A DNA stretch of 48,083 nucleotides. It comes from a virus. The position numbers and the translations under genes were made by a program. This document shows positions 92 to 41,280 of the stretch, piece by piece. The DNA lies in IMG/VR virus record IMGVR_UViG_3300005096_000100, positions 1-48,083 of that record. The stretch is one strand, 5' to 3'. Position 1 is the first letter of the stretch, and every line of letters begins with the position of its first letter. Under the pieces are notes generated by a model. It was not told where the DNA came from. It worked only from the letters and a program-made list of their open reading frames with translations, and did not search any database.

Positions 92-2062
92 AGTACAGTG
101 ATTTTAAATGCAGATAGTATCCTTCGAAATATGGACGGGTTTAAGTCGTTAGGGCCAGCTTATACGTTCATTAAGGGCGGCATAGATAGAGCTATGACGG
201 AAGGATATCTCAAGGGAAGTATCGGGTATACTGCACGCTTAAATAAAGAAGGTGCTAAGCTCAATAAGATATATGACATGTTTAACAAGCGGGAGAAACT
301 TAGAATTGGAACGGAACAAGATATCCCTGGTGTACGCACTAGGCTAACTAAAGAACAGCAGATTTCGGTTATACTAAATATGGGAAATGCTGATAATATT
401 GCTGCTCTATTAGACAGTAAGGTGTTCACCGAAGCAGAGCTAAATGCTATCGTGGACAACGCTAGTAAAAGAGATAAAGAATTTGTACAAGCTATTTGGG
501 ATTTCCTTGGGGAGTTTGCGCCAGAGATTAGAGCTACCGTACGTCGTAGACAGAACCGCAACCCTAAAATGGTTGAAGCTCAAGCAGTGGAAGGTTCGGA
601 TGGCGTACTTCGTGGAGGGTATTACCCTCTTATGTACGACAGCCAAAAAGCTGTGTTAGAAAGCGACGTAAATAACTTAGATGTAGCAGAGATGCAAAAA
701 GTTATGCTTCAAGGAGGTTTTACTTCAAGCCACACTAAAGACGGCCATACGCAGACGCGCAAGGGCTCTGGTGGTCGCCCGGTTAAGCTTGACATGTATG
801 TGCTTATGAACCACGTCAACCAAGTAGTGTATGATTTGGAAGTAGGGGACGCAGTATACGACTCCTACAAAGTGCTGCATCACAGAGATTTGAAGGAAGC
901 TTTTTCCGAACAAGGGCAGATAGATGTTTGGCAAGCGCTAGACCTATGGTTAGGCGACGTTATTACAGGTGAAATAAAACGCGGTGGCGCTGTTGAGTCC
1001 GCGTTTCGACATATCCGTACAGGCACGACTATATCTAAACTGGCTATCAACTTCAGCGTCGCTTTGATGCAGCCACTTGGTTTGCTTCAGACCGCAGTGC
1101 AAATAGGTAAAACTAATACTCTACTTGGACTGTTTGACTTAACGGCCAGTGGTTCTAGTCCGATGGCAACGTATAAATGGGTTACGGACCAATCTGGGTT
1201 TATGGCGAGTAGGGAACAAGCGTATAACAAGGATATCCACGATGCGCAGAGAGCTATTAAACTTGGGGCGCTGTCTAAGGTGCTGCCCGGAGACATTGCC
1301 AGTAATATATCTTCTTATCTGTTCCTGCCCATCACCAAGATGCAGCGATTTGTTGATATTGTAACTTGGCTGGGCGCAAAACGCCAAGGCTTAAAGATGT
1401 TCGACGGGGACGAAACTAAGTCCACCCTCCACGCGGATAGAATGGTGGCCCGAACTCAAGGCTCTGGTACTTTTTCAGAACGTACAGGGTTTGAACGCGG
1501 CACAATAAACAAGAACGTCAGGAACACGGAAGTAGTGCGGTCCTTTTCATTGTTCTTAAATTATTTTGCCGCTAAAGTAAACGTAGCTTACGAACGCACG
1601 GGTAGAACTAACTTCAAGAACCCAGCACAATTCGCTAATTGGGTCTCTGACATGATCTTGTTGTTTGCCGTAGAAGGCGTCATAGCCGCTTTAATACGAG
1701 AAGGCTTACCTGAAGATAGCGATGACGATGGGGAGCCTGATTGGATATTATTTGTCTTGTGGGAGACTGCTAAGAATGCTGCCGCCGGTATCCCGGTCCT
1801 TAGAGAAGTTGTAAGCGCGGCGGAAGGTTTCGACACAGGTGGTGCTATTGGTAGCTTCCTTGGCACTGTTGCTAGAGCGGGTAAACAGATATCTCAAGGT
1901 GAAGTTGACGCCGCAGCTTTAAAAAGTGTGAACAACATCGCAGGAACTTTATTCAAATACCCAACTAGCCAAATCCACAAAACAGGGCAAGCCGTCATGG
2001 ACAGTGTAGACGGTGAAGAGGTGGAGTGGTGGGAGTTTATCACTGGGCCACGCAGGGATTGA
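1..2062 (+). CDS. 3-prime part of the giant virion/ejection-type protein gene. It continues 44841..48083 across the junction; combined length about 1737 aa.
   Basis: The frame of the 44..2062 ORF is open back to base 2. Base 44 equals base 48036, and 48036-44841 = 3195, which is divisible by 3, so the two pieces are in frame. The position, after gp14/gp15-like genes and before the tail fibre, mirrors T7 gp16. Confidence 0.75.
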   Translation, partial: DNVTKVKNVSRITTMSANVVESYKKLGTSVSTVILNADSILRNMDGFKSLGPAYTFIKGGIDRAMTEGYLKGSIGYTARLNKEGAKLNKIYDMFNKREKLRIGTEQDIPGVRTRLTKEQQISVILNMGNADNIAALLDSKVFTEAELNAIVDNASKRDKEFVQAIWDFLGEFAPEIRATVRRRQNRNPKMVEAQAVEGSDGVLRGGYYPLMYDSQKAVLESDVNNLDVAEMQKVMLQGGFTSSHTKDGHTQTRKGSGGRPVKLDMYVLMNHVNQVVYDLEVGDAVYDSYKVLHHRDLKEAFSEQGQIDVWQALDLWLGDVITGEIKRGGAVESAFRHIRTGTTISKLAINFSVALMQPLGLLQTAVQIGKTNTLLGLFDLTASGSSPMATYKWVTDQSGFMASREQAYNKDIHDAQRAIKLGALSKVLPGDIASNISSYLFLPITKMQRFVDIVTWLGAKRQGLKMFDGDETKSTLHADRMVARTQGSGTFSERTGFERGTINKNVRNTEVVRSFSLFLNYFAAKVNVAYERTGRTNFKNPAQFANWVSDMILLFAVEGVIAALIREGLPEDSDDDGEPDWILFVLWETAKNAAAGIPVLREVVSAAEGFDTGGAIGSFLGTVARAGKQISQGEVDAAALKSVNNIAGTLFKYPTSQIHKTGQAVMDSVDGEEVEWWEFITGPRRD

Positions 2063-2098: not shown

Positions 2099-2114
2099 GG
2101 TATCACGTGATACC
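2099..2114. repeat. Palindrome GGTATCACGTGATACC, perfect
   Basis: Intergenic, 17 nt upstream of the tail fibre ATG, immediately downstream of a sigma70-like -10. Confidence 0.95.
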
Positions 2115-3935: not shown

Positions 3936-4130
3936 ATGTCACAATACCCCGATGCACTGGTTACGGAACTACAGCAAGAATTGACTAATTCCATCGCTTC
4001 AAAGATATCGAAAGGCGCTCAACTACGTGAAGCTAAACAAGTCATCGAAGCGCAGGAAGCAGTCATAGCTGATCTGAAACAACAAGTGGAACGACTGTTG
4101 GCTCCACAGCTAGATGTTGGTATCACGTGA
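3936..4130 (+). CDS. Hypothetical coiled-coil protein (64 aa)
   Basis: ATG at 3936 is preceded by GGGAG, whereas the ORF-track start at 3900 is GTG without an RBS. The stop TGA lies inside the palindrome copy at 4119..4134 (protein ends ...GIT*). Confidence 0.45.
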   Translation: MSQYPDALVTELQQELTNSIASKISKGAQLREAKQVIEAQEAVIADLKQQVERLLAPQLDVGIT

Positions 4131-4134
4131 TACC
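4119..4134. repeat. Palindrome, perfect
   Basis: Straddles the stop of 3936..4130, 25 nt upstream of ATG 4159. Confidence 0.95.
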
Positions 4135-9136: not shown

Positions 9137-9639
9137 AGTTCTTCCTTATTTCGTCCATAAAAAGCTAGTAAAGCAGCTTCACATCGTCCATCTAATAGGC
9201 CACCGTTCGGACCAAACCACAGCGTTTCATTGTCGGGAAATAGTTCTAGGCATTTAAGCAATGCTGTTTCTTTATTCGCTCCTATGCCAAAGAAGTTTTT
9301 CCAGATCGTAGGACGGATTAACCTATACTCATACTCCAGCGCCGATAGTACGCCCCGGATAACTCCGAAAGATTGACCAAACGAAAACATCGAAGACACC
9401 CCCTGTCCAGGCATAGCACTGACACTTTCTAAATATACTGTACCGTTTAAACTATCCATTAAACTGACTAAAACTAGTTCATCAATCTCCCGACGTTTTT
9501 TACTTTTCCGAGATTTCGTAGCTACGTCGCGTACTGGAATATCCCACACCCGTAGAGCGCCGTCAGGTTTAAGGTGCGCGATAGCACCAGATACGCCAGG
9601 GTCTATACCTACCGTAGTACACTTAAATGTGCTAGTCAT
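9133..9639 (-). CDS. RuvC-like Holliday junction resolvase
   Basis: N-terminal VGIDPGVSGAIA (catalytic Asp motif), ESVSAMPGQG, and C-terminal DGRCEAALLA. Typical of the phage RuvC fold. Confidence 0.75.
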   Translation of the reverse strand: MTSTFKCTTVGIDPGVSGAIAHLKPDGALRVWDIPVRDVATKSRKSKKRREIDELVLVSLMDSLNGTVYLESVSAMPGQGVSSMFSFGQSFGVIRGVLSALEYEYRLIRPTIWKNFFGIGANKETALLKCLELFPDNETLWFGPNGGLLDGRCEAALLAFYGRNKEEL

Positions 9640-9836
9640 TCTACGTCCTTTAAGATGAGTAAGTATTTTCCATCGGCTCGGTCAAACGTACCGTCGATCA
9701 CTAGATACCGACCACACGTGTCTCCTATGTCGTTATCTTCGTAGGTATCACGTGATACCTCTCGCACGTGGTAGTTAGATAGTGGGCTTGTGCGCCTAGC
9801 TAACATATCTCTCCATCTGGTGAATTTTAGTATCAT
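9636..9836 (-). CDS. Hypothetical protein (66 aa)
   Basis: Overlaps both neighbours by 4 nt. Contains palindrome copy 9744..9759, read as VSRDT. Confidence 0.5.
   Translation of the reverse strand: MILKFTRWRDMLARRTSPLSNYHVREVSRDTYEDNDIGDTCGRYLVIDGTFDRADGKYLLILKDVE
9744..9759. repeat. Palindrome, perfect (intragenic)
   Basis: Inside 9636..9836, read as VSRDT. Confidence 0.95.
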
Positions 9837-12017: not shown

Positions 12018-12575
<558 letters not shown>

Positions 12576-12598: not shown

Positions 12599-12614
12599 GA
12601 TATCACGTGATACC
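12599..12614. repeat. Palindrome, 1 mismatch (GATATCACGTGATACC)
   Basis: Intergenic, 24 nt upstream of start 12575. Confidence 0.9.
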
Positions 12615-12621
12615 AGTTAAA

Positions 12622-13200
12622 CTATCTAGATTTGCCTTCTATTTTTTTAGCAGCTTGATTGATGGTCCGTTCGGGTGCTTCTTTTAAAACTTTGTACCAA
12701 GGTCTGTTCTCTACCGGCTTAAGGTCATGGCTACGAATGAGATAGTACGTTTTAGGTCTTAGGTGGTTCAACAAATCTGGGTTGGTTACAAACAACCTAA
12801 ACATTTCTGCGAACCACTCGGCGTCATTAGGGCAATACCCCGTCAACTTACGTTCTCCTGATTTAGCCCGTAACCCCACGCTAAATTCAGAATGATAACG
12901 GTCCTGTGTTTTACCTAGACCAAAATCGATAGCGTGGCCTAATTCGTGTGCTAAGACGCCATAAGGTGTGCGATCTATTACATATCCGGGGAATGACCAA
13001 GCCCTAGCTGCAAATCCTATGTTAGCGCATTTAGCTGGGCATACATGTATAGTATGGTACCTGTAGTAAGCGCATACTCCAAAACGCCAATCGTCAATGT
13101 GCGTTTTTTCTATAGAAGGACAACTCATGTTGTTTATTTGACAAAATTCTTCTATTAAATCTTGACCAGCCATAGTAAGCAAAGCTTTAGACATTCCCAT
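12622..13200 (-). CDS. HExxH zinc metallopeptidase-like protein (192 aa)
   Basis: The motif VLAHELGHAIDFG resembles ImmA/IrrE-type or other minimal zincins. A GGGAG RBS is present. Confidence 0.5.
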   Translation of the reverse strand: MGMSKALLTMAGQDLIEEFCQINNMSCPSIEKTHIDDWRFGVCAYYRYHTIHVCPAKCANIGFAARAWSFPGYVIDRTPYGVLAHELGHAIDFGLGKTQDRYHSEFSVGLRAKSGERKLTGYCPNDAEWFAEMFRLFVTNPDLLNHLRPKTYYLIRSHDLKPVENRPWYKVLKEAPERTINQAAKKIEGKSR

Positions 13201-13909: not shown

Positions 13910-15127
13910 TTAGCCTTTCTTAATAGGTTTGAAGAGCGACTTAGCGTCCCTCTTAATGCGACGGCGAGGGTCGCCCTCGACCGCCACGGTGGTACTGCCT
14001 TTGGGTTTGAAGGCCCATCTAGCAGTGAATGCTTTACCTTCCGGTAGCGCATCCAATTGGGCAGGCGATAGAAACGTCGGTTTAGACATCATACGCTTGC
14101 CGAATTTCTTCTTAGCGGCAGTCTCCGCACCTTTCTTGTATTTGCGGTTGCTGCGAGAAGCTACCAGTTTTAACCCCGGTACTTCTTTACCGTTGGTTAG
14201 GAGTTGAAATGCTTTTGTGTTTGCCGCTTTGAAAGCAATCTTCGATAGAGACTGCAATTCAATAATGCGACCAAGCTGTGCGTTCGTTAGAGCGTCCGCA
14301 CCTTTCGTTCCTGAAGCCATCATCAATAATCCTTGTAGTTCTTCCATGGTTTCCATGATCGCGGGGCACTGGTGGCCACGTGCAGGACAGAACCGACAAT
14401 GTTCGCCGGCAACGGTATCACGTGATACCTCTGTGCGTTCCATAGCCGGTACACATTCATCGAACAGCCAAGCGTCTAAGTCATCTGGCGATATCTCCCA
14501 AGTCCTATGAGGCCCATCATGGTGCCAGCCTCGGGGCTGTATGATATGTAGAACAACCTTAGTCACAGTGTCCCAAATCATCAGGTCCTCGATGATGCCA
14601 GCAGCATAGTAAAGACATTGCGGGTTCTTCTCGACTTCAACTACGATGCCTGCGCCATGCTTGTAATCGTAGACATGTAGTACGTTTTCTTCCGAGAAGT
14701 ATGAAAAGTCCGACATGCTATAGAAATCAGGATGTATGCCAGGACAGTGGAACCTGCGTTCGACCCAAGAATTACCTTGGTTCCGGTCAGGGTGCCATTC
14801 ATTGACGATATGCAGGAAATACTGCACCGCGTCAGCCATCTCTTTAGTGACTGTAACAAGTAAACCACTGTTGTATTCTAATGGTACGTCGCCATCTTCG
14901 TAAATTTTGCCATCCGATGTTATGATGTGTCCGATTAACTCCCAAGGTTCATGACCGTGGGAGAGGCACAGTTCTGCAAGGACATGCGCAGCTTGGCCCT
15001 CACGAGTATAGTCTTCGCCGTCGTTAGTCAGCCCGTCACTCTGGTAGACGGAACCGGAACACACCATCCATCGATGTGCCCCGCTTCCGCCCAGAGGTGA
15101 GTGAGCTTTCAATTCACTCACTGCCAT
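13910..15127 (-). CDS. DUF2800-type PD-(D/E)XK (Cas4/RecB-like) nuclease
   Basis: 405 aa. N-terminal GGSGAHRWMVCSGS, central D..Y.YKHG, and a C-terminal Cys cluster CRFCPARGHQCP. Confidence 0.7.
   Translation of the reverse strand: MAVSELKAHSPLGGSGAHRWMVCSGSVYQSDGLTNDGEDYTREGQAAHVLAELCLSHGHEPWELIGHIITSDGKIYEDGDVPLEYNSGLLVTVTKEMADAVQYFLHIVNEWHPDRNQGNSWVERRFHCPGIHPDFYSMSDFSYFSEENVLHVYDYKHGAGIVVEVEKNPQCLYYAAGIIEDLMIWDTVTKVVLHIIQPRGWHHDGPHRTWEISPDDLDAWLFDECVPAMERTEVSRDTVAGEHCRFCPARGHQCPAIMETMEELQGLLMMASGTKGADALTNAQLGRIIELQSLSKIAFKAANTKAFQLLTNGKEVPGLKLVASRSNRKYKKGAETAAKKKFGKRMMSKPTFLSPAQLDALPEGKAFTARWAFKPKGSTTVAVEGDPRRRIKRDAKSLFKPIKKG
14414..14429. repeat. Palindrome, perfect (intragenic)
   Basis: Inside the DUF2800 nuclease gene, read as VSRDT. 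Confidence 0.95.
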
Positions 15128-15712: not shown

Positions 15713-15952
15713 CTATTTCATGTGGACGTGTTTAGTCGCCCACATCAAAGCCTGTTCAGCGTTCGTTCTTGCGAGCGCTAACTCCCTACTTGTGCCTATG
15801 TTGGAACAAGTATCTATAAATTCCTTAATAATTTTGGACAACTCATGGGCTTGATTTATCGAAGACCTTGCCCTCGCATCAGCTTGCGCCGCTAAACCAT
15901 CTTCGATAATCTTACCAGCGACATCAACTTCTCTATCTCTAGTCTCATCCAT
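15713..15952 (-). CDS. Hypothetical protein (79 aa)
   Basis: ATG at 15952 has a GGGAGAAG RBS, whereas the track start at 15967 is TTG. A palindrome copy lies 21 nt upstream. Confidence 0.5.
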   Translation of the reverse strand: MDETRDREVDVAGKIIEDGLAAQADARARSSINQAHELSKIIKEFIDTCSNIGTSRELALARTNAEQALMWATKHVHMK

Positions 15953-15972: not shown

Positions 15973-15988
15973 GGTATCACGTGATACC
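15973..15988. repeat. Palindrome, perfect
   Basis: Intergenic, 21 nt upstream of start 15952. Confidence 0.95.
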
Positions 15989-16015: not shown

Positions 16016-16044
16016 ATTCTACAAATTCTCTTGAGCCTTCTTAA
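16016..16044 (-). promoter_or_regulatory. Sigma70-like promoter candidate TTAAGA-17-TAGAAT
   Basis: Read on the minus strand inside the 3-prime end of 16019..16600. Palindrome 15973 would lie in the 5-prime UTR. Confidence 0.3.
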
Positions 16045-16600
16045 CCCATCGCCGCGCAGCTTCTCCCGCAGCAGCGGCACCGGTTAACGCGTAGTTATGT
16101 TTACCGACAGACAGCGTGTCGCAGCCTGCGATGAATTTCTCAATGTGACCTAAGAGAGTGCTTAAATCCTCACCTGGCTTTTCAGATAGATGACAGTCAC
16201 ACCATTGAATTGGGTAAGCTGGTTTATTGTGTAATATCGCACAATCGGAAGCATGCGCAGCCTCTTTAAGGACGCCATCTTCTTCCACTTTGGCAGTGAG
16301 TACCTCGTTCTTAAACTCATCCCAAGCTTCTTGCCACTCATCCATAAAGACTGAAGGCTCACATTTCTGTACAGAATGCGACGACATGGGCGAAGGAGGA
16401 AAAATTGATGCAGTAGCTATAACGGCTTCTCCAAGCAACACTTCTATAGTGCCCCTACCCTTACTCACTATTATATTTTCCAAATAGGTTAAATCCCGCC
16501 TATTGTACTTGAGGTTTCTAAACTTAACCAAGTAACCCTCGCGCATAGCCCAGCCAACTAAATGCCGAGCATCATCATAGTAGTGATCTAATTTAGTCAT
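16019..16600 (-). CDS. Hypothetical protein (193 aa)
   Basis: The ORF starts 2 nt after the SNF2 gene stop. No motif recognised. Confidence 0.55.
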   Translation of the reverse strand: MTKLDHYYDDARHLVGWAMREGYLVKFRNLKYNRRDLTYLENIIVSKGRGTIEVLLGEAVIATASIFPPSPMSSHSVQKCEPSVFMDEWQEAWDEFKNEVLTAKVEEDGVLKEAAHASDCAILHNKPAYPIQWCDCHLSEKPGEDLSTLLGHIEKFIAGCDTLSVGKHNYALTGAAAAGEAARRWVKKAQENL

Positions 16601-19060: not shown

Positions 19061-19076
19061 GGTATCACGTGATACT
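19061..19076. repeat. Palindrome, 1 mismatch (GGTATCACGTGATACT)
   Basis: Straddles the stop of 19065..19544, 45 nt upstream of start 19016. Confidence 0.9.
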
Positions 19077-19544
19077 AACTACGCCACAATCACATCCCCC
19101 GGTATCATAAAATGAACACCCGGCGAAATGGACAGGAGACGTTGTTGCTTTACTAGCTACTTCACCTAGAGCATTTTCATGCGCGCCGCAGTCGCATACA
19201 TCCGTATTCTGGAACGAGCACCCAGCAGCATGAATGACCGCCGCCTTATTATCGATGTCGCCAACAGTGGTTGAGCTTGGGAATATGTCGCTCTCGTCCT
19301 CTAAATCTGAAGGCATATATTGGCCACAGATTAAATGGCAATTCGGAAACCCGGACTGCTTCAGCAGCTTAGGGGCGTTAGGCTGTGCGCCCACTAGCTT
19401 AGGAGCGTTACGCTGTGGCGCAATGGGGATCAGCGCTAGTGTAGGTGGCCAGTAGCGGCACTCCGTTAGGTCAGGGTTGCCAGGGCTAGGTGCGGGCGCG
19501 GAGTGGGCGCACTGGTGGCATGTGATGTCTTTGTCTATTTCCAT
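19065..19544 (-). CDS. Cys-rich protein with a duplicated AGCSFxxTxxCDCG motif (159 aa)
   Basis: ATG at 19544 has an AAGGA RBS, whereas the track start at 19562 is TTG. The stop TGA lies inside the palindrome copy at 19061 (protein ends ...SIT*). Confidence 0.5.
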   Translation of the reverse strand: MEIDKDITCHQCAHSAPAPSPGNPDLTECRYWPPTLALIPIAPQRNAPKLVGAQPNAPKLLKQSGFPNCHLICGQYMPSDLEDESDIFPSSTTVGDIDNKAAVIHAAGCSFQNTDVCDCGAHENALGEVASKATTSPVHFAGCSFYDTGGCDCGVVSIT

Positions 19545-20125: not shown

Positions 20126-20443
20126 CTACGCTCCCCCGTCCCTTGAACCCAATCGTACATTATCAATGCTTAACGCCGTGCAGAACGACACAAAAGCATC
20201 TAGCTCGTTGCCACTCTTCACAGTGACGACGAAAACTTCAGGTTGGTTGGATCGATTCTTAACGCGACGCCGCAATCCTTCGACCGCGATCAAAGTCCAC
20301 TTCGGGGCGTCATTGTTCTTCACCCACTTGCTGATAGCATTTGAGGATACGTGCAGCAGTTCAGCTAACGCTACCGTGGTAAGACCGAGGTCCTTCCTGA
20401 CGGCGACTAAGTGTGCGGTATCAGTTCTAAATGTCTTATACAT
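20126..20443 (-). CDS. Helix-turn-helix DNA-binding protein (105 aa)
   Basis: The segment LGLTTVALAELLHVSSNAISKWV is a classic HTH. ATG at 20443 has an AAGGAAG RBS. A perfect palindrome lies 22 nt upstream. Confidence 0.65.
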   Translation of the reverse strand: MYKTFRTDTAHLVAVRKDLGLTTVALAELLHVSSNAISKWVKNNDAPKWTLIAVEGLRRRVKNRSNQPEVFVVTVKSGNELDAFVSFCTALSIDNVRLGSRDGGA

Positions 20444-20464: not shown

Positions 20465-20480
20465 GGTATCACGTGATACC
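20465..20480. repeat. Palindrome, perfect
   Basis: 22 nt upstream of the HTH gene start at 20443. Confidence 0.95.
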
Positions 20481-20554: not shown

Positions 20555-21541
20555 CTACTTCTTGCTCTTCTTCTTTTTCTTCTTCGGCGCAGGACGTTGA
20601 AGCGCTTTCGGTATGGGAGGCATGTCGCCCGGCTCAAGGTTTTCGTCAGGAACATAGCCAGCGTCTTCCTTGACATCGGCACCGTCGGACACGTCCAGGC
20701 CAAGCTCTGCCGCCGCCCAACGAACGAACGTCATCTGCGCTTTAACAGACATGTTGTTAAAAGCATCAACCGTGGTATCGTACACGCTCTTACCCTTACG
20801 GCTCTTAACCGCTTTGGCTTCGGCATCCGTTACGACAGTCAATCCGTTGTTGCCGGCAATGCTCTTAATACTAAGCGCACGTTCTTCCGGCTTCATCGAC
20901 TTCAAAGCATTCTGCACTTGGTCAAAAGAACTTACCTTCGGCGCAGACGGCGCGGCACTGGGACCGGCACCCCGTCCATCGTCCGTACCCTTGGCGGCAC
21001 GGGACTTTTTATTCGCCGCTTTGTTACGGTTACGCAGGTCTTCAAGCATAAGCGCACCAGCGCCCTTGTCTTCGTTTTCCGCAACTCCGATGGCCACCAG
21101 CTTACGGGCAGTTTGCCATCCTTGGTCGATATTAGTTTCAACCCAATCCTGGAATTTGATACCAACATCAGTACACTGTTCTTTAGCGACCGCTAAGCGA
21201 CATGCAGCCGACAAGCGATGGTCGTCAGCTTGACCAGAGAGCTTCGATGCTTTCTTAAACCGGACATTGATTTCGGTCGCCGTCGCTTCAAGCTTGCGCT
21301 CGGTACGCTGCTTGGCGGCAACTTCCTTCAGTTCCTTGTTCGTCTTGTCCCGTTCGGCGTCAGCTTGGCGCTTAAACCGCTTGGCTTCCCGCTCGGCATC
21401 CCGTGCGCTGGCGTTGGCGGCTTTAGCCTTGTCCCTCGCTTGGGCAATCTTGGTGGCCGCGACCTGTTCCGCTTCGGACAGTTCGCGAGCCTTCTTCGGC
21501 TTGGCTTTGCTTTTGGTTTCCGCTTTCTTTTTCGTAGCCAT
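20555..21541 (-). CDS. Lys/Ala-rich, probably DNA-binding protein (328 aa)
   Basis: Start MATKKK at 21541 has an AAGGAAGAC RBS; the longer track ORF overlaps the upstream gene. Both termini are basic (the C-terminus ends KKKKKKSKK), and the central part is coiled-coil-like. Confidence 0.55.
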   Translation of the reverse strand: MATKKKAETKSKAKPKKARELSEAEQVAATKIAQARDKAKAANASARDAEREAKRFKRQADAERDKTNKELKEVAAKQRTERKLEATATEINVRFKKASKLSGQADDHRLSAACRLAVAKEQCTDVGIKFQDWVETNIDQGWQTARKLVAIGVAENEDKGAGALMLEDLRNRNKAANKKSRAAKGTDDGRGAGPSAAPSAPKVSSFDQVQNALKSMKPEERALSIKSIAGNNGLTVVTDAEAKAVKSRKGKSVYDTTVDAFNNMSVKAQMTFVRWAAAELGLDVSDGADVKEDAGYVPDENLEPGDMPPIPKALQRPAPKKKKKKSKK

Positions 21542-21581: not shown

Positions 21582-21597
21582 GGTATCACGTGATACC
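21582..21597. repeat. Palindrome, perfect (extends to a 20-bp palindrome, 21580..21599)
   Basis: Intergenic, 40 nt upstream of start 21541. A TTGACA hexamer (minus strand, 21604..21609) lies 6 nt away. Confidence 0.95.
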
Positions 21598-21605: not shown

Positions 21606-22097
21606 TCAAACGTTATTTTTGATATCTCCGCAAATAGGAGGCACGGGGTCGTCAAAGCTCCAGCGCAAGTCGCATTTGACGCAGTACATTTCATCGGATT
21701 GCCGAATGGCTTGACAATCAGCACCTAGAATACCTTTAACCGGAACACACAAATCCCCGTCGTTCACATACGCCATAAGGCCGTCTCTAGCGTAGAGTTC
21801 CCCATCCGGCGTTATGGCAAGGCGAACGTCTTCGAATTCATCCCCAAGCGGATCGACAGGCTCTTGGCAAATGCGCTTAGGTAATTCCTCAATAGCGACT
21901 TCAACCGCTTCGTTAAGGAACCCCGGCAGAGATTGCACACCACGAGTAAACTCGATAGCAGGCCGCCACACTAGACCGCAGAACTGGCAAGCATGAGTAT
22001 GGTGGCCTCGATCCACCCATTCGCCGTCATCGATGTGGCGTTCACAGCACTGCGGACAGGATAAAATGAGGTCGATGGCTTTAGCTCGTCCAGGCAT
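21606..22097 (-). CDS. Cys/His-rich (zinc-ribbon-like) protein (163 aa)
   Basis: CPQCCERH...HTHACQFCG and C-terminal CVKCD...PPICG. Confidence 0.5.
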   Translation of the reverse strand: MPGRAKAIDLILSCPQCCERHIDDGEWVDRGHHTHACQFCGLVWRPAIEFTRGVQSLPGFLNEAVEVAIEELPKRICQEPVDPLGDEFEDVRLAITPDGELYARDGLMAYVNDGDLCVPVKGILGADCQAIRQSDEMYCVKCDLRWSFDDPVPPICGDIKNNV

Positions 22098-23245: not shown

Positions 23246-23274
23246 TTGACAGGCGATTACTTCCAGCCTATAGT
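23246..23274 (+). promoter_or_regulatory. Rightward promoter TTGACA-17-TATAGT for the prim-pol/helicase gene
   Basis: Consensus -35, 17-nt spacer and good -10, 36 nt upstream of ATG 23310. Confidence 0.6.
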
Positions 23275-23309: not shown

Positions 23310-25277
23310 ATGCCTAATATGAAGGATGAAGCACTCGCCTACGCGGCGAGGGGCTGGCCTATATTCCCCGCAAGGGCAAACAAGAAACCATATACCGACA
23401 GTGGTGTGTTAGACGCGACAACAAATAAAAAGCAAATAGCCGATTGGTGGACGCTGTGGCCACAGGCTAATATCGCCTTGGATGTTGGCGCGGCTGGTAT
23501 GGTAGTTTTAGACTTTGACCCTGGCTCCGAATGGGGCGAGGTAATTAAGAATGTCGGAAACTTACCTGACACTCATCTAATACAGAATACGCCTAGAGGT
23601 GGCGAACATCATTTCTATCGTAAAGATAGAGATGAAATAATACCACTATCCGCTGGCAAGATCGCAGACCACGTGGACATAAGATCGCACAACTCATACG
23701 TCCTTCTAGCACCTTCAAAAACAAAAGATGGCGTCTACACCTGGGAAGAAGAAGGGAAGCCAGCTTACCGCACTGATAGGTTGGTTGAGGTGGCCGGTAA
23801 AAAACGGGATGTAAGCGAAGACCGCGATGAGTGGATTATCGAACCTGACCTGCCTGAAAGTATAGCGGACTTAACCAAGTGGTTAAAAAAGAAAGCACAG
23901 ATCGCTGTCGATGGACGCAATGGCGATGAAATGGCTTATCGTACAGCGGCCATGTGCAAGTCTTACGGCGTATCACCTGAAACTGCTTTCGACCTTATGT
24001 GGGAGCACTGGAACCCCCGTTGCGATCCTCCCTGGTCTGACGAACAGATAGAACATTTAGAGCAGAAAATAGTCAATGGCTATACCTACAATACGAGCCC
24101 GCCCGGAAACCTGACTAAGGGCTACAAAGCCGCAAAGCGCAAGAAACTATTCAAACGGGTGAAGCAAGAAGCCGAAAGCGCTAAAGGCGACACGGCGCAA
24201 ATCACCGTTGGCCGGTTTCGTATTATCGACCGCGAAGGCATCAAAAATATAAAACCCCCGGAATGGTTGATTGAGGATGTCCTGCCCGAAGGCTCGTATT
24301 CAATGCTTATTGGCCCACGCTCCACTTACAAAACCTTTGTTGCCTTAGACATGGCCATGTCCATAGCTTGCGGCGGAGATAGGTACTACAGCGACGTGAA
24401 GGACTGGCGGGGCCTGTGGGGCTCGGTTAAGGACAAAGGCGCTGTACTGTACGCTGCGGGCGAAGGAAGGGGCGGTTTTAAGCACCGCATCGAAGCTTGG
24501 GAAAGCTACCACTTAGAAGGTGATGAAGTATCTAACTTCTTTTTAGCCGATCCCGTACCGCACCCGACCGAAGAAGACATTGAGGACTTCATAAATTACG
24601 CACTTTTGAAAGCCGACAAATATAAGCTTGTTGTTCTCGACACCGTGGCCCGGTCGATGCAGGGGTTAAATGAAAATAGCCAACAAGATGCGTCTGCTTT
24701 CACCTTACTAATCCAGACTATCCAGCAGGAACTTGGTTGTGCAGTCTTAACCGTTCACCATACAGGCCACGGGTCGGATGATAGAGCGCGTGGTAGTTCT
24801 GTATTCGGTGCGGACGTTGACACCGAATTTGTAATGGAGAAGCGCGATCCTCATTATGTACAGATATCGAATACCAAACAAAAAGACGCTTCCGAATGGG
24901 ACAAACCTAAACTAGTCCATGTCTTTGAACATAAACAAAGCTTAGTCGCATCGACACCACCGCGCAACACCAAAGCAACCGTACAGTCTATCGAAGATAA
25001 ACAACAATCGAAAGGTAAAAAGAAGCGCCGTAATAAGGTGGATAGCGAAGGGATTGACGAAATGATCCGCGATGTTGCTTATAGAGCTATAAAAAAGGTA
25101 CCAGTCAAGGATTGGTCACGCAGCCTATTATCGGCTGCAATTGCTAAGAATAAGATAATCAATTTAGCCGCATCCACCATAAGAACTAAACATATGGACT
25201 GTCTATTAATGGATAAAGACCACTTAATATGGGACTGTTATGATGAAAATAAAGGTGTTTGGCGTTATAATTCTTGA
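23310..25277 (+). CDS. Bifunctional primase-polymerase (prim-pol) fused to a RecA/DnaB-like (AAA_25-type) helicase domain
   Basis: The N-terminus AYAARGWPIFP...VLDFDP is typical of the prim-pol N-domain. The central part has GPRSTYKT (P-loop-like), LVVLDTVARS and VLTVHHTGHG..RARGSSVF. The track start at 23295 is TTG. Confidence 0.8.
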   Translation: MPNMKDEALAYAARGWPIFPARANKKPYTDSGVLDATTNKKQIADWWTLWPQANIALDVGAAGMVVLDFDPGSEWGEVIKNVGNLPDTHLIQNTPRGGEHHFYRKDRDEIIPLSAGKIADHVDIRSHNSYVLLAPSKTKDGVYTWEEEGKPAYRTDRLVEVAGKKRDVSEDRDEWIIEPDLPESIADLTKWLKKKAQIAVDGRNGDEMAYRTAAMCKSYGVSPETAFDLMWEHWNPRCDPPWSDEQIEHLEQKIVNGYTYNTSPPGNLTKGYKAAKRKKLFKRVKQEAESAKGDTAQITVGRFRIIDREGIKNIKPPEWLIEDVLPEGSYSMLIGPRSTYKTFVALDMAMSIACGGDRYYSDVKDWRGLWGSVKDKGAVLYAAGEGRGGFKHRIEAWESYHLEGDEVSNFFLADPVPHPTEEDIEDFINYALLKADKYKLVVLDTVARSMQGLNENSQQDASAFTLLIQTIQQELGCAVLTVHHTGHGSDDRARGSSVFGADVDTEFVMEKRDPHYVQISNTKQKDASEWDKPKLVHVFEHKQSLVASTPPRNTKATVQSIEDKQQSKGKKKRRNKVDSEGIDEMIRDVAYRAIKKVPVKDWSRSLLSAAIAKNKIINLAASTIRTKHMDCLLMDKDHLIWDCYDENKGVWRYNS

Positions 25278-25281
25278 TATT

Positions 25282-25462: not shown

Positions 25463-25518
25463 AGAAGCATAAAAATTAGTGTGCTTGGGTTAAAGAGTAT
25501 GTAGTACTCTAACCAGCA

Positions 25519-25595: not shown

Positions 25596-25611
25596 GGTAT
25601 CACGTCATACC
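25596..25611. repeat. Palindrome, 1 mismatch (GGTATCACGTCATACC)
   Basis: At the edge of the AT-rich origin-like region. Confidence 0.85.
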
Positions 25612-25630
25612 ACTATTGAAAGGTTAAAGA

Positions 25631-25680: not shown

Positions 25681-25688
25681 TTTATGCT

Positions 25689-25725: not shown

Positions 25726-25762
25726 ATGGCCCGGCTATTGCTTACCGGGAAGGAAGAGAAAC

Positions 25763-26020
25763 TTAATCCTTTCCGTCGGGCCAAGTAGGGAATGACATGC
25801 AGCGGTGCGTTCGCATGTCTAAGGTGCCGTCGATACGTGTTTTGAATAGGGTATTGTTGAGCCAGTCTAGGTCATCGACGAATTGTAGCTTGTATGGCTT
25901 GCCGTCTGGTCTGTTTATAGCGTACCAGCTAGGTATATGGTCACCAGTAAACCGATATACGTATGCCGCTAATACGTGGTCTTTGTCGGCTTGACATAGT
26001 TCGCTTCCATAACGTTCCAC
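25763..26020 (-). CDS. Hypothetical protein (85 aa)
   Basis: GTG at 26020 lies 4 nt after the upstream stop and has an AGAGGAG RBS. The longer track ORF overlaps the upstream gene. Confidence 0.45.
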   Translation of the reverse strand: MERYGSELCQADKDHVLAAYVYRFTGDHIPSWYAINRPDGKPYKLQFVDDLDWLNNTLFKTRIDGTLDMRTHRCMSFPTWPDGKD

Positions 26021-26024
26021 GGTT

Positions 26025-26216
26025 CTACTCCTCTTTGTAGCCGTCAAACCAAGCACCATTAGCGCGGCGCGTAATAGCCTTAGCACGGGCTGAATTGCTT
26101 GTGCTGGAACTATCAGGGTCTTGGCAGTGCGCTTGAGCCTCTTCTAAGGTTAAGCCGCGCTCTATGGTGCGGGTTGCGTGGTGTAGGTACATTCGTACGA
26201 TTTTATAGGTGGCCAT
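26025..26216 (-). CDS. Hypothetical small protein (63 aa)
   Basis: The pattern GLTLEEAQAHCQDPDSSS...GAWFDGY recalls a widespread small phage protein family of unknown function. Confidence 0.55.
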   Translation of the reverse strand: MATYKIVRMYLHHATRTIERGLTLEEAQAHCQDPDSSSTSNSARAKAITRRANGAWFDGYKEE

Positions 26217-28004: not shown

Positions 28005-28336
28005 GACGTTTACCCTTTCATTTGATATCCAGTGGTAACGTTCCGTTCTTAGCACGAGCATCGCACCAAGGCAACCGGTAAATAATGCGCGGCTGATATG
28101 GTGGCGATTGCTCGCTGAAGCTTTAGCCGATTCGCTACGGTTATTCCTTGGTTTGTCTAAGGCATAGCTAGGGATAATCGCGGCGCTAGATTGCTTTGGA
28201 TATAGCTGGGACAGAGTTAGTGCGGTGTTAGGGAGAATTTGATTGCGGTCGATATCTAAGGTGCCAAACCTAAATCCACACACTCATTTGCCGCCAAAGA
28301 CTGCGAGCTTCGACATTGCATTGCGTTAGTTAGGTG

Positions 28337-28369
28337 GTCGCTTAGCCGTCGCTTAGCCGTCGCTTATTC
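28337..28369. repeat. Three tandem 11-bp repeats (GTCGCTTAGCC x2, GTCGCTTATTC)
   Basis: Read directly. The period is about one helical turn. The region is non-coding. Confidence 0.8.
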
Positions 28370-28418
28370 TAGCTGGGCAGTGAGCCATGACGCATCAACG
28401 TACGTCCCAACTAGCCGA

Positions 28419-28434
28419 GGTATCACGTGATACC
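28419..28434. repeat. Palindrome, perfect
   Basis: In the divergent control region 28284..28897. Confidence 0.95.
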
Positions 28435-28648
28435 AATGCAGTTAGTAGCGGCCAGAGATTTCTCGCGAGCTTATTCTCTTTGAATTGGGTGGGGGGCCTT
28501 TACAGACATCGACTTCGGGGGTTCGTGGGGTCGCCTCGATTACGCACATCCTAGATCGCCAAGCCAGTTTTTGAAAAGTTAGCGATTAAATTTGAAAATC
28601 TAGACACCCGCCCCACTAAACCAAGGATAACCAACGCGATCAAAGGTA

Positions 28649-28677
28649 TTGACGAAGCTACTCCTAATATTTACTAT
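28649..28677 (+). promoter_or_regulatory. Promoter candidate TTGACG-17-TACTAT for the structural block
   Basis: Hexamers read directly. It would give a ~210-nt leader before the small terminase gene. Confidence 0.45.
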
Positions 28678-28897
28678 GCCAACTAGTGACGGACCTACGG
28701 CAAGCCGTTGCGAGGCTACACAAGGTACTGGACCTCCCCTCGACTGGTACCGTGGAGGTAGTCGCAGCGCTTAGCTTAGACGGGATGTGGTGTCTCTTGA
28801 CTAGGCTGGTGGAGGGCGGCGTTAGAAATAAAATAGCCCTCCACATTGAACGTAGAACATATTGTAGAGTTAGAAAATAAACGATAGGAGCTAAGCG

Positions 28898-31657: not shown

Positions 31658-31673
31658 GGTATCACGTGATACC
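31658..31673. repeat. Palindrome, perfect
   Basis: Intergenic, 17 nt upstream of the portal ATG. Confidence 0.95.
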
Positions 31674-33798: not shown

Positions 33799-34167
33799 AT
33801 GGTATCACGTGATACCTCTGACGCGAAACTCGTTAAGACCCAGGAAGAGATGCACGAAGTTCGGACCACTCTACATAGAGAGATGATGGCTAAAGTGCTC
33901 GGCACTTATGAGGGGCGACATATTCTGTATAACGTTCTGGCATTGGGGGATATATATGAGCAAAGAGACAGTATGTCTTATGGTTTGGCGGAAAGCCAAC
34001 GGGCTATAGGGCGTAGGGAAATGTCGCTGGATTTGCTTAAAGACATATTGACAGCCGATCCGAACGCTTATATTGTCATGCAACAAGAGGTTGGGGCCTT
34101 CGAGGAAAAGTTTGAAGTTGTAGAAGACGCACCGGAAGAGGATGAAGATGATGACGATCATGAATGA
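33799..34167 (+). CDS. Hypothetical acidic protein (122 aa)
   Basis: ATG with a GGGGAG RBS 8 nt upstream. Codons 2-6 (VSRDT) are the palindrome copy at 33801. Confidence 0.5.
   Translation: MVSRDTSDAKLVKTQEEMHEVRTTLHREMMAKVLGTYEGRHILYNVLALGDIYEQRDSMSYGLAESQRAIGRREMSLDLLKDILTADPNAYIVMQQEVGAFEEKFEVVEDAPEEDEDDDDHE
33801..33816. repeat. Palindrome, perfect
   Basis: Begins with the G of ATG 33799. Read as codons 2-6 (VSRDT). Confidence 0.95.
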
Positions 34168-36436: not shown

Positions 36437-36473
36437 CCTGGTATGACGTGATACCAGGGCGGCGTTTTCTTTT
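36437..36473 (+). terminator. Rho-independent terminator after the capsid/decoration genes
   Basis: Stem CCCTGGTATGAC/GTGATACCAGGG (contains the palindrome variant), followed by CGGCGTTTTCTTTT. Confidence 0.6.
36440..36455. repeat. Palindrome, 1 mismatch (GGTATGACGTGATACC), embedded in a terminator stem
   Basis: Flanks CCCT/AGGG extend the stem. A T-run follows. Confidence 0.9.
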
Positions 36474-41200: not shown

Positions 41201-41280
41201 TACGACAGATATACCCGCTGCCGATGACTGTATCCGCTTTGATACCCTATCTTGACGTGGGCGACACCGATGAAGAATAA
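38236..41280 (+). CDS. Tail nozzle / tail tubular protein B-like, with four inserted FCCH-like modules
   Basis: 1014 aa. Gene order is as for T7 gp12. Four modules of ~70 aa carry the motif GM(T/V)ELNG...(T/S)FEL. Confidence 0.6.
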   Translation: MPRLIQPSFARGELGPELYGRVDVAAYAVSLRTALNLIIHAYGGASNRAGLLYVGPCASSTHASTPPNIIEFKFNVQDTYILEFGGLYMRVIRNDAHVLNAAVVISGASAANPAVLTATGHGYSNGTDVYVDNVVGMTELNGRWFTVANATANTFELTSQQTGVAIDSSSYAAYGSAGIVSSVYEIVTPYTLAEVTDLRHVQSANVMTFVHPSHPPQELTRTDHDAWTLVEVDFKPEQVPPSAIGAIVNSAGAVTYKYKVASVNEESGEESLPGASDIKFDINSITRANPCVVETTAANTYDDGDEIEISLVVGMTELNGRRFTVDRLTATTFALEGEDSTAYTLYSSGGETRATFIRVPSAAATANNTVDWTGAAEAGRYSVYREDNGLYGFLGNTELLLFDDENISPDLAITPPKTRNPFFGSGNSPSVVSYYEQRRVFGGSDNKPDTKDYSVTGSQGNMSRSSPLQADDAITATLNSLEVNVIRAFVPMNDLLVFTSGSEWRINSGTELAFSAENLRQKPQSNWGSALLDPIVVGDKVLYVTENSAYVRSTGYELSIDGYRGNDMTVFSPHIFRNDTIVDWAFTRWPDPIINTVRSDGYAPALTFNPEQEVVAWSVWKTDGKFKHVASTRPNSDDVDTQPYFVVQRKIGGSNVYYIERTHSRRFTDVKDCFFVDSGLSLDLPKTITNVTSVYPAVVTSVAHGFAYGDEVDLSDIVWEPDVDKVFNETQPEQLNKGRFFVAEALANSFELVSIDGRRDITAVTQANPAVVTSAAHGLSNGDVVGVFNTKGMVELNGNTYKIANKTDDTYELNTLADANVDSTPYTAYVVGGNTYPAIDGSAFNDYVEGGTARLTTLTVSGAWHLEGRAVVILADGNVVTDRTVVNGQVTLPYKASRVHIGLRYIADLETLDPEPPVAGTVQGSSIRVPYITVRVKDTRGIHIGPNKYDLVEIPQREFEKDGEPTDLLTGDKELEIPADWNGGGRAFLRQIYPLPMTVSALIPYLDVGDTDEE

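What the first reader, a model, noticed from the sequence alone, without database searches (positions are those of the whole stretch)
14414..14429. Coding copies of the palindrome are all read in one frame (V-S-R-D-T), and two genes use its internal TGA as their stop
The palindrome contains TGA in one frame on both strands, leaving two open frames (VSRDT and YHVI). Every copy inside a credible gene uses gta-tca-cgt-gat-acc. These are the 66-aa ORF (EVSRDTYED, 9744), the DUF2800 nuclease (TEVSRDTVAGEHC, 14414), the giant protein (VEVSRDTDPD at 45080; EEVSRDTPLEG at 46649), the gp13-like protein (MVSRHTTY, 41416) and the 33799 ORF (M-VSRDTSD). Two genes end on the motif's TGA: 3936..4130 ends ...GIT* and 19065..19544 ends ...SIT*. 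Keeping a 16-bp palindrome inside essential genes points to selection at the DNA or RNA level. The pentapeptide is then a passenger, or it was placed in tolerant linkers; the flanks are acidic and linker-like in the giant protein.
Basis: seen in the sequence. Interest (0 to 1): 0.7.

Follow-up and report, generated by a model that had tools for sequence, protein, structure and literature searches.

The report
Genome-wide 16-bp palindrome in phage
A 16-base palindrome is scattered about every 2.8 kb around this uncultured phage genome, mostly between genes, is kept at the DNA level even inside genes (always read as Val-Ser-Arg-Asp-Thr), and related phages carry their own symmetric variants of it, so it is most likely the binding site of a still unidentified DNA-binding protein.

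Summary
GGTATCACGTGATACC occurs 11 times exactly and 6 times with one mismatch in the 48-kb window (0.15 expected). The window is a complete circular podophage genome.

All six copies inside genes are read G|GTA|TCA|CGT|GAT|ACC (VSRDT or VSRHT). Two ORFs stop on the internal TGA. Two details are wrong. The gp13-like gene starts about 50 codons upstream, so its copy is internal. The coding copies are also the minority: 9 of 17 lie in the 5% of non-coding DNA (P=6e-9).

DNA-level selection is shown. In 8 DUF2800 orthologues (46-87% aa identity), 33 of 35 motif codons match the window's, against 43% at other invariant residues (P=1e-10). Relatives carry their own perfect palindromes (GGGATCACGTGATCCC, GGTCTCACGTGAGACC, GGTGTCACGTGACACC, GGTGTGACGTCACACC), each repeated within its genome.

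Sites are syntenic and evenly spaced. They bracket a conserved, unannotated 328-aa basic protein gene.

Best reading: operator-like double-stranded DNA sites for a co-evolving dimeric protein. This resembles mycobacteriophage stoperators but is not homologous to them. The reader protein and its function are inferred, not shown. An RNA-hairpin role is disfavoured.

The parts
2099..2114 (.). exact copy. Intergenic, between the end of the giant gene (2062) and the tail-fibre gene ATG at 2131.
4119..4134 (.). exact copy. Its TGA (4128-4130) ends ORF 3900/3936..4130 (...GIT*). It lies 24 nt before the ATG at 4159.
   Evidence: The ORF was not found among IMG calls.
9744..9759 (.). exact copy inside the 66-aa gene 9636..9836 (minus strand), read EVSRDTYED.
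   Evidence: The gene is called by IMG.
12599..12614 (.). one-mismatch copy (GATATC...). Intergenic, between 12622..13200 and 12018..12575 (minus strand).
14414..14429 (.). exact copy inside the DUF2800 / Cas4-like exonuclease gene 13910..15127 (minus strand), read VSRDT just before the HCRFCPAR...CP cysteine cluster. The site is orthologous in relatives.
15973..15988 (.). exact copy. Intergenic, between 16019..16600 and 15713..15952 (minus strand).
19061..19076 (.). one-mismatch copy. On the minus strand its TGA (19067-19065) ends the gene ...VVSIT*.
   Evidence: IMG calls an 83-aa product with this end.
20465..20480 (.). exact copy, 21 nt upstream of the ATG (20443) of the 105-aa HTH gene and just downstream of the P1 gene.
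21582..21597 (.). exact copy, 40 nt upstream of the P1 gene ATG (21541) and 8 nt after the stop of 21606..22097.
25596..25611 (.). one-mismatch copy in the 486-bp AT-rich non-coding region downstream of the prim-pol gene.
28419..28434 (.). exact copy in the divergent non-coding region 28284..28685, upstream of the packaging and structural operon.
   Evidence: The 55-aa ORF over it is not an IMG call.
31658..31673 (.). exact copy. Intergenic, 16 nt before the portal gene ATG at 31690.
33801..33816 (.). exact copy forming codons 2-6 (M-VSRDT) of gene 33799..34167 (phrog_528).
36440..36455 (.). one-mismatch copy at the apex of an intrinsic-terminator hairpin (36430-36465 plus a T run), -27.4 kcal/mol.
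41416..41431 (.). one-mismatch copy inside the internal virion protein gene 41270..41743 (phrog_308), residues 50-54, read VSRHT. The site is orthologous in relatives.
45080..45095 (.). exact copy in the giant virion protein, residues 81-85, read VSRDT. The same site is present in L003.
46649..46664 (.). one-mismatch copy in the giant virion protein, residues 604-608, read VSRDT. The same site is present in L003.
20555..21541 (-). P1: a 328-aa basic, all-helical protein with no known family. Its gene is bracketed by motif copies here and in relatives. It is the best (but weak) candidate for the protein that reads the motif.
23310..25277 (+). Prim-Pol / AAA_25 primase-helicase. In relatives a motif copy abuts the 3' end of this gene. 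It is an alternative candidate reader, through its C-terminal domain.
20126..20443 (-). 105-aa helix-turn-helix protein with a motif copy directly upstream. It is not conserved in relatives.

Best explanation
The palindrome is a recognition site on double-stranded DNA for a sequence-specific protein that binds as a symmetric dimer. That protein is most likely encoded by the phage.

The site has been installed roughly once every 1-3 kb around the whole genome, preferentially in the short spacers between genes. Where there is no spacer it is fitted into coding sequence in the only harmless way. Either its TGA supplies the stop codon (GIT*/SIT*), or it is read as the hydrophilic peptide V-S-R-D-T in a linker, an N-terminus, or a spot where the protein already tolerates that peptide.

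Site and reader co-evolve, so related phages carry different symmetric variants.

By analogy with stoperators and KorB/ParB-type systems, the bound protein most plausibly acts genome-wide. It could be a roadblock or insulator for transcription, or a nucleation point for organising the phage chromosome.

Shown:
- selection at the DNA level;
- the bias towards non-coding DNA and gene boundaries;
- synteny of the sites;
- even spacing;
- genome-specific symmetric variants and hybrid half-sites.

Inferred:
- that a protein dimer reads the site;
- what binding achieves.
For: - Over-representation: 17 copies against 0.15 expected.
- Position: 9 of 17 copies lie fully in the 5% non-coding DNA (P=6e-9); 11 of 17 are non-coding or on a gene end (P=5e-10).
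- Spacing is even: CV 0.43, minimum gap 1117 bp, P=2e-4 even against a null restricted to gene boundaries. In relatives, gaps under 500 bp number 10 against 33 expected.
- The exact motif is shared by phage contigs only 64-70% identical in their conserved genes, with G+C from 43 to 66%.
- Codons are invariant inside DUF2800, P=1.3e-10.
- Each genome has its own perfect palindrome (extended). L066 has GGTCTCACGTGAGACC 10 times in 11.5 kb.
- Half-site logic: hybrid sites such as GGGATCACGTGATACC are common. One-mismatch copies show no excess of G-U over A-C on the sense strand (14 against 12, plus 17 transversion-type changes).
- The central ACGT, which would be a hairpin loop, is itself invariant and palindromic.
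- The isolated RNA hairpin is only -6.2 kcal/mol.
- Motif copies bracket the P1 gene in the window and in L062, L063, L066, L069 and L085.
- P1 is confined to the motif-bearing clade.
- Cluster A stoperators show the same logic of cognate motif variants and sites around the regulator gene (PMC6550527).
Against: - No protein with a recognisable DNA-binding fold is conserved with the motif.
- P1 has no Pfam, PHROG, PDB or Foldseek relative.
- P1's most HTH-like helix does not covary with the motif variant.
- No integrase or CI-type repressor was found, so a lysogeny stoperator role is unlikely.
- Symmetric changes are equally what a hairpin stem would show.
- Some relatives keep only one copy.
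Confidence: 0.55

Rival explanations
1. RNA element. The motif acts in the transcripts as a small hairpin (6-bp stem, ACGU loop) that marks gene boundaries in polycistronic mRNA. It would be a processing, stability or translation signal read by an RNA-binding protein or nuclease, comparable in layout to the RNase III sites of T7.
For: - Most non-coding copies sit 16-44 nt upstream of a start codon within co-directional gene strings.
- All between-genome changes keep stem pairing, and the loop ACGT is invariant.
- One copy forms the apex of a real terminator.
Against: - The hairpin is weak (-6.2 kcal/mol) and in context often no better than shuffled sequence.
- There is no preference for G-U over A-C on the sense strand, and many stem-breaking or hybrid copies exist.
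- Copies lie in divergent and convergent non-coding regions that are probably not transcribed through (28419, 25596).
- Every copy in a genome has the same stem sequence. A structure alone does not require this.
Confidence: 0.13
2. Host-factor site. The palindrome is the operator of a host protein, probably of a Rhodospirillales-type alphaproteobacterium. The phage either exploits that protein or soaks it up.
For: 50 of the 120 listed bacterial hits to the exact 16-mer come from Rhodospirillales, Thalassospira, Kiloniella or unclassified alphaproteobacterial MAGs. They are single, mostly intergenic copies, with only 4 of 120 loci phage-like. The T...A flank is enriched as in the phage copies.
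Against: - Closely related phages use different variants.
- Carriers span 43-66% G+C.
- No conserved neighbouring gene was found at the bacterial sites.
- About 139 chance hits are expected in 596 Gb, and the scan was truncated, so copy numbers per genome are unknown.
Confidence: 0.15
3. Replication signal. The palindromes are single-strand initiation or priming signals, or secondary origins, read by the phage Prim-Pol helicase and spaced at about Okazaki-fragment length.
For: - Spacing is even, at 1-3 kb.
- Palindromy makes the signal strand-independent.
- In relatives a copy abuts the 3' end of the prim-pol gene, and in the window one lies in the AT-rich region after it.
- By eye, the C-terminal 85 aa of Prim-Pol look like a winged helix.
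Against: - There is no direct evidence.
- No covariation is visible between the Prim-Pol C-terminus and the motif variant.
- Some relatives have one copy only.
Confidence: 0.1
4. Protein-level selection. VSRDT is a functional peptide, and the DNA identity is a by-product of that.
For: The DUF2800 subfamily column reads [V/T/I]-S-x-[D/E]-T. L080 keeps VSRDT with other codons.
Against: - Nine of 17 copies are non-coding.
- Codons are invariant where synonymous sites elsewhere are scrambled.
- The host proteins are unrelated to one another.
- Variant palindromes change the peptide (GSRDP, VSRET).
Confidence: 0.02
5. Mobile or recombination element. The motif is a miniature mobile repeat, or a hotspot for module exchange.
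For: It sits at gene boundaries and is shared by mosaic relatives.
Against: - It is only 16-18 bp, with no flanking repeat structure.
- Sites are syntenic across relatives 33-60% identical in protein, which points to ancient fixed positions rather than recent insertions.
- No recombinase is associated with it.
Confidence: 0.05

Closest known systems
Stoperators and operators of Cluster A mycobacteriophages (L5 gp71, Bxb1, TipsytheTRex repressors)
   Same: - Tens of copies of one short site are spread over the whole phage genome. Most are not in promoters, and many lie in short intergenic spaces or at gene ends.
- Sites flank the regulator gene.
- Related phages have similar but distinct cognate motifs (PMC6550527; PMC9283540).
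   Different: - Stoperators are 13-bp asymmetric sites oriented with transcription and bound by a monomeric repressor of a temperate actinophage.
- Here the site is a perfect 16-bp palindrome.
- The phage shows no integrase or repressor.
- The host is probably an alphaproteobacterium.
- No reader protein is identified.
Conserved inverted repeats (CIRs) bound by the phiC31 repressor (from my own knowledge; no paper retrieved)
   Same: A palindromic site of about 17 bp is present at many positions throughout a phage genome, mostly intergenic.
   Different: phiC31 is a temperate Streptomyces siphovirus with a known repressor gene. Homology was not tested. In-frame coding copies and lineage-specific symmetric variants are not part of what I know of that system.
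ParB-parS / KorB-OB (palindromic sites read by a dimeric clamp that nucleates and spreads or acts at a distance)
   Same: - A 16-bp perfect palindrome with the core TCACGTGA.
- 12 of 16 positions are identical to the canonical parS TGTTTCACGTGAAACA (from memory).
- A few to tens of dispersed copies.
- Specificity changes by symmetric base changes.
   Different: No ParB/KorB N-terminal domain was found in any window protein scanned. The sites are not clustered near a par locus. The resemblance is in logic only.
RNase III processing sites of T7-like phages
   Same: Elements placed between genes at intervals of 1-5 kb in a lytic podovirus.
   Different: Those are long, imperfect RNA hairpins of diverse sequence. 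Here a short identical sequence is used, with no sign of RNA-level constraint.

Membership tests
Cluster A mycobacteriophage stoperator system | Many copies of one short site dispersed through the genome, mostly outside promoters | tested here: met
   There are 17 copies, 9 in non-coding spacers. Only one sigma70-like promoter stands out in the 11-30 kb stretch scanned, and it is not at a copy.
Cluster A mycobacteriophage stoperator system | [quoted passage not shown] | tested here: not met
   The site is a perfect 16-bp palindrome and has no orientation.
Cluster A mycobacteriophage stoperator system | Cognate immunity repressor and temperate life style (integrase or parABS) | tested here: not met
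   Pfam and PHROG scans of 38 window proteins found no integrase, ParA/B or CI-type repressor. They found only a weak 105-aa HTH that is not conserved in relatives.
Cluster A mycobacteriophage stoperator system | Motif variants differ between related phages (cognate specificity) | tested here: met
   Five further symmetric variants besides GGTATCACGTGATACC, most repeated within their own genome.
ParB-parS / KorB-OB | ParB-type N-terminal (CTPase) domain protein encoded with the sites | tested here: not met
   No PF02195-type hit in the proteins scanned. P1 has no hit at all.
ParB-parS / KorB-OB | 16-bp palindromic site bound by a dimer | tested here: inconclusive
   Palindromy and half-site behaviour are shown. 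Binding cannot be tested with these tools.
Intrinsic terminator / structured RNA element | Stable stem-loop, followed by a U tract for terminators, with covariation that tolerates G-U | tested here: not met
   Only copy 36440 lies in a strong hairpin with a T run. The bare motif folds at -6.2 kcal/mol. G-U against A-C is 14:12.
DUF2800 (PF10926) PD-(D/E)XK / Cas4-like exonuclease (the gene that holds the reported copy) | Match to the family profile over the full length | tested here: met
   phrog_69 exonuclease at 9e-71. PF10926 is precomputed for P0027 and its homologues.
phiC31 CIR-repressor system | Homologue of the phiC31 repressor c | not tested
   No reference sequence was at hand. The comparison rests on memory.

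The most novel reading that the evidence does not exclude
The palindromes are nucleation or loading sites for a new family of phage DNA-organising proteins. P1 would be that family: a basic tail, a 78-residue helix and two helical domains, with no known fold relative. Its specificity would co-evolve with the sites, giving a ParB/KorB-like or H-NS-like system invented independently in an uncultured clade of alphaproteobacterial podophages. Alternatively, the sites are priming signals for the Prim-Pol helicase, set at Okazaki-fragment spacing.
Probability: 0.2. Interest if true: 0.8.

Novelty: new variant of a known kind. Interest (0 to 1): 0.6.

Why it matters
The finding defines a sequence family (consensus T-GG-N-N-T-[C/G]-ACGT-[G/C]-A-N-N-CC-A) that marks a whole clade of uncultured aquatic podophages. 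These phages have a BPP-1/epsilon15-like head and a PolA / DUF2800 / Prim-Pol replication module, and no cultured relative carries the P1 protein.

The case shows cleanly how a DNA signal is threaded through protein-coding sequence. One frame is tolerated, one frame supplies stop codons, and one is avoided.

It gives a directly testable pairing problem: which protein reads the site, and how specificity switches between GGTA, GGGA, GGTC and GGTG half-sites.

It offers a practical marker for host assignment (Rhodospirillales-type genomes carry the same 16-mer) and for gene-boundary annotation in these phages.

Tried and rejected
- Near-identical phage search: nothing found. No cultured phage carries P1.
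- Literature search for the 16-mer and the 12-mer: no relevant paper. A generic search for 'palindromic repeat' returned only CRISPR papers.
- ParB idea: the motif resembles parS, but no ParB-like domain was found.
- P1 identification all came back empty:
  - Pfam, on full length and on the conserved domain;
  - PHROGs;
  - PDB sequence profiles;
  - two AlphaFold models, pLDDT 83 and 86, with Foldseek against PDB;
  - a profile search of 5.8 billion proteins.
- Covariation between the motif variant and the P1 helix or the Prim-Pol C-terminus: none visible.
- Link to sigma70 promoters: none.
- First gene callers: length-greedy and codon-usage versions were too crude. The crude frame count of 69 to 20 was inflated by ORFs that read through upstream copies. 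It was replaced by a homology-supported count.
- The look-up of encoding contigs holds no record for this contig. IMG gene calls were recovered instead by exact-sequence look-up.
- Conserved neighbour gene at the bacterial sites: none found for the Rhodospirillales loci.
Full report
**1. What is there**

The sequence at 14414-14429 is GGTATCACGTGATACC, a perfect 16-bp palindrome. The window holds 11 exact copies and 6 with one mismatch, plus a doubtful three-mismatch match at 23204. Dinucleotide-preserving shuffles give 0.15 matches and never reach 18. The 12-bp core gives the same sites.

The window is a complete circular assembly. Its last 91 nt repeat its first 91 nt, which leaves 47,992 unique bases.

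It is a podophage:
- The head is BPP-1/epsilon15-like; the major capsid protein is 56% identical to that of BPP-1.
- The replication module holds PolA, a DUF2800 exonuclease, an Enc34-type SSB, a helicase and a Prim-Pol/AAA_25 primase-helicase.
- A giant virion protein of about 1737 aa runs across the contig junction.
- No near relative exists among deposited phages.
- No integrase or CI-type repressor was found.

**2.

GGT-ATC-ACG-TGA is closed on both strands. G-GTA-TCA-CGT-GAT-ACC gives VSRDT. GG-TAT-CAC-GTG-ATA-CC gives YHVIP.

I curated the gene map from the ORF list, ribosome-binding sites and profile matches. I then checked it against the JGI/IMG gene products of this same contig by exact-sequence look-up.

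The six copies inside genes all use the VSRDT frame:
- 9744, in the 66-aa gene;
- 14414, in DUF2800;
- 33801, as M-VSRDT of a phrog_528 gene;
- 41416, as VSRHT in the phrog_308 internal virion protein;
- 45080 and 46649, in the giant protein.

Two ORFs stop on the motif's TGA. One ends at 4130 (...GIT*). The other ends at 19065 on the minus strand (...SIT*). IMG calls an 83-aa product with the second end. I found no IMG product for the first.

Two details in the finding are wrong:
- The gp13-like gene starts at 41270, not at the ATG fused to the motif. The phrog_308 profile aligns from residue 11 of the long ORF, and IMG calls the 157-aa form.
- Copy 20465 can also be read as M-VSRDT. The real start of that HTH gene is the ATG at 20443, which follows an AAGGAAG ribosome-binding site.

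**3.

The coding copies are the minority. Only 5.0% of the genome is non-coding, yet 9 of 17 copies lie wholly in it (P=6e-9). Eleven of 17 are non-coding or overlap a gene end (P=5e-10). A twelfth starts at the second codon of a gene.

Most non-coding copies sit 16-44 nt before the next start codon. One (36440) forms the apex of a -27.4 kcal/mol terminator hairpin.

The copies are also evenly spread. The coefficient of variation of the gaps is 0.43 and the smallest gap is 1117 bp. P is about 2e-4, even when the null places 12 sites only at gene boundaries.

**4. Relatives**

The exact 16-mer occurs in 60 stretches of IMG/VR contigs.
- Some contigs carry many copies: 20 exact in a 48.8-kb contig and 14 in a 44.6-kb contig.
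- These contigs are only 64-70% identical to the window, and only within the most conserved genes.
- Their G+C ranges from 43 to 66%.

A second, motif-blind sample came from 79 loci that encode DUF2800 relatives.
- The clade with at least 41% DUF2800 identity has the palindromes or at least their core.
- The clade below 38% identity has none.

**5. DNA-level selection**

In 8 DUF2800 orthologues (46-87% aa identity) the site reads G|GTA|TCA|CGT|GAT|ACC.
- GTA, TCA and CGT are invariant; GAT and ACC are each kept in 7 of 8.
- The base before the motif is always G although that residue is L, E or M.
- Of 83 other invariant, degenerate residues only 6 keep a single codon in all sequences.
- Codon identity to the window is 33/35 inside the motif and 248/581 outside it (P=1.3e-10).

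It is met only superficially.
- L078 encodes VSRDT with GTG TCA CGT GAC ACC, and L066 encodes VSRET with GTC TCA CGT GAG ACC.
- Both changes are symmetric. They recreate the palindrome that is repeated in that phage's own genome.
- L080 alone keeps VSRDT with non-palindromic codons.

There is some constraint at the protein level. In 120 homologues of the subfamily the column reads [V/T/I]-S-x-[D/E]-T, with VSRDT in 41 and VSRET in 12. The site therefore lies where a compatible peptide is tolerated.

**6. A family of palindromes**

Perfect 16-mers with a CACGTG core, counted across all loci:

| Palindrome | Count | Where |
|---|---|---|
| GGTATCACGTGATACC | 139 | window and many relatives |
| GGGATCACGTGATCCC | 30 | L069-L073, L085 and others |
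| GGTCTCACGTGAGACC | 10 | all in the 11.5 kb of L066 |
| GGTGTCACGTGACACC | 5 | L078, L057 |
| GCTATCACGTGATAGC | 4 | L032, L062 |
| GGCATCACGTGATGCC | 2 | L016, L061 (overlapping stretches of one contig) |

L079 and L081 use GGTGTGACGTCACACC instead.

All differences between variants are symmetric: positions 2/15, 3/14, 4/13 and 6/11. The central ACGT, T5/A12 and G1/C16 never change.

Relatives that seemed to lack the motif still have 1-3 sites with the TCACGTGA core. Some of these have hybrid half-sites.

A weak T...A preference just outside the motif extends it to 18 bp.

**7. Frame bias and stop use in the family**

I counted only exact copies that lie at least 25 residues deep in alignments to non-identical homologues. 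Twenty-four use the VSRDT-type frame (VSRDT, GSRDP or VSRET). One weakly supported case uses YHVIP. Several of the 24 are orthologous, so they are not independent events.

Orthologous coding sites:
- DUF2800;
- two positions in the giant protein, which are identity islands in acidic, indel-rich stretches shared with L003;
- the phrog_308 protein, reading VSRDT, VSRGT, VSRDP or GSRDT in relatives;
- the N-terminus of the phrog_528 protein;
- a linker of the primase in two relatives.

At least five homology-supported genes in relatives also end on the motif's TGA.

The simplest account is purifying selection. The hydrophilic VSRDT is tolerated in linkers. YHVIP, which includes an ATA codon and a proline, is not.

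**8. DNA or RNA?**

The bare hairpin has a 6-bp stem and an ACGU loop and folds at only -6.2 kcal/mol. In context it is often no better than shuffled sequence.

Among 43 one-mismatch copies whose flanking genes give the sense strand, the broken pair is:
- G-U in 14;
- A-C in 12;

A structure under RNA-level selection should favour G-U. Independent half-sites are what a dimeric DNA-binding protein predicts.

Two further points favour DNA. Every copy in a genome shares one stem sequence, and the would-be loop is itself palindromic and invariant. Copies also lie in a divergent and a convergent non-coding region (28419, 25596) that may not be transcribed through.

I therefore favour recognition of double-stranded DNA. 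Symmetric covariation alone cannot exclude a hairpin.

**9. Who reads it?**

The only non-enzymatic protein conserved with the motif is the product of 20555..21541 on the minus strand, which I call P1.
- It is 328 aa and lysine-rich at both ends.
- The AlphaFold model predicts a 78-residue helix followed by two helical domains (pLDDT 83).
- Its gene is bracketed by motif copies in the window and in L062, L063, L066, L069 and L085.
- The family occurs in the motif-bearing clade only.
- Several members carry VSRDT in their own linker.

- It has no relative in Pfam, PHROGs or the PDB, by sequence or by fold.
- Its most HTH-like helix (QSYETVRKL) does not covary with the motif variant.

Other candidates are also weak.
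- In relatives the Prim-Pol gene ends right at a copy. Its C-terminal 85 aa look like a winged helix by eye, but no covariation with the motif variant is visible.
- The 105-aa HTH next to P1 has a copy upstream but no homologue in relatives.

I put P1 at about 25%.

**10. A host connection**

About 139 chance hits are expected in 596 Gb.

Fifty of the 120 hits come from Rhodospirillales, Thalassospira, Kiloniella, Magnetospirillum or unclassified alphaproteobacterial MAGs. Four of those genomes contribute two hits each.
- The sites are single and mostly intergenic, and they lie in unrelated contexts.
- Only 4 of the 120 loci carry phage-like genes.
- No neighbouring gene family is shared among them.

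This points to the host clade and keeps a host-encoded reader in play. A GcrA-like gene in L066, judged by eye, fits an alphaproteobacterial host.

**11. Comparison with known systems**

The closest analogue in logic is the stoperator system of Cluster A mycobacteriophages. It has many dispersed sites, sites around the regulator gene, and cognate motif variants between relatives (PMC6550527; PMC9283540).

Membership fails on three defining features. Stoperators are asymmetric and oriented with transcription. They are bound by a known repressor. They belong to temperate phages.

The phiC31 conserved inverted repeats and the KorB/ParB systems are further analogues. The first comparison rests on my own knowledge. 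The resemblance to parS (12 of 16 positions, core TCACGTGA, from memory) is not backed by any ParB-like protein in the window.

**12. Verdict**

- The larger finding is a lineage-specific family of evenly spaced, syntenic palindromes that marks an uncultured phage clade.
- The mechanism I commit to is operator-like double-stranded DNA sites for a co-evolving dimeric reader with a genome-wide role in regulation or organisation (confidence 0.55).

Noticed in passing
window 1-91 and 47993-48083: The last 91 nt are identical to the first 91 nt, so the contig is a complete circular assembly of 47,992 bp. The giant virion protein (phrog_9880) runs across the junction as 44841..48083 plus 92..2062, about 1737 aa.
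   Followed up: yes
L139-L258 (bacterial genome loci): Fifty of the 120 listed bacterial hits to the exact 16-mer are from Rhodospirillales, Thalassospira, Kiloniella, Magnetospirillum or unclassified alphaproteobacterial MAGs. They are single, mostly intergenic copies in unrelated contexts, and only 4 loci are phage-like. This suggests the host clade and possibly a host-encoded reader.
   Followed up: partly
window 20555-21541 (-): A 328-aa basic, all-helical protein family (26 full-length members plus shorter ones) has no Pfam, PHROG, PDB or Foldseek relative. It is confined to this phage clade, and several members carry VSRDT in their own linker.
   Followed up: yes
window 25278-25762: This 486-bp AT-rich non-coding stretch lies between the convergent prim-pol gene and 25763..26086. 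It holds copy 25596 and a strong minus-strand terminator at 25727-25696, and is a candidate replication origin.
   Followed up: no
window 22097-22774 (-): The early region encodes a pentapeptide-repeat protein (PF00805, 2e-36). It could be a DNA mimic or a gyrase-interacting protein.
   Followed up: no
window 23246-23274 (+): A near-consensus sigma70 promoter (TTGACA-17-TATAGT) lies in front of the prim-pol gene. The degenerate three-mismatch motif copy at 23204 lies about 27 bp upstream of its -35 element.
   Followed up: no
window 36430-36465; L179, L155, L158: Copy 36440 is the apex of a longer terminator hairpin. In Thalassospira sp. HJ and in Actinomyces/Trueperella genomes the same 16-mer also sits at the apex of a longer perfect hairpin between convergent genes.
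   Followed up: no
window 25596, 36440, 41416: Three of the six one-mismatch copies carry the same change (GGTATGACGTGATACC, in either orientation). That gives one half-site with G at position 6, the state that variant E (GGTGTGACGTCACACC, in L079 and L081) has on both halves.
   Followed up: partly
L065, L067, L084: These relatives keep only one exact copy in 17-21 kb, and it is the copy inside DUF2800. That site may be the ancestral or most important one.
   Followed up: partly
window 31413-31643 (+): A small ORF between the large terminase and portal genes contains a run of prolines (SSPSAPAPPPPPPPPLAPP). Its C-terminal part is conserved in L024 and L007.
   Followed up: no
L066 4336-4716 (+): A 126-aa ORF upstream of the prim-pol gene looks like a GcrA-type HTH by eye (...GVSANTVIGLSHRGG...). 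This would fit an alphaproteobacterial host.
   Followed up: no
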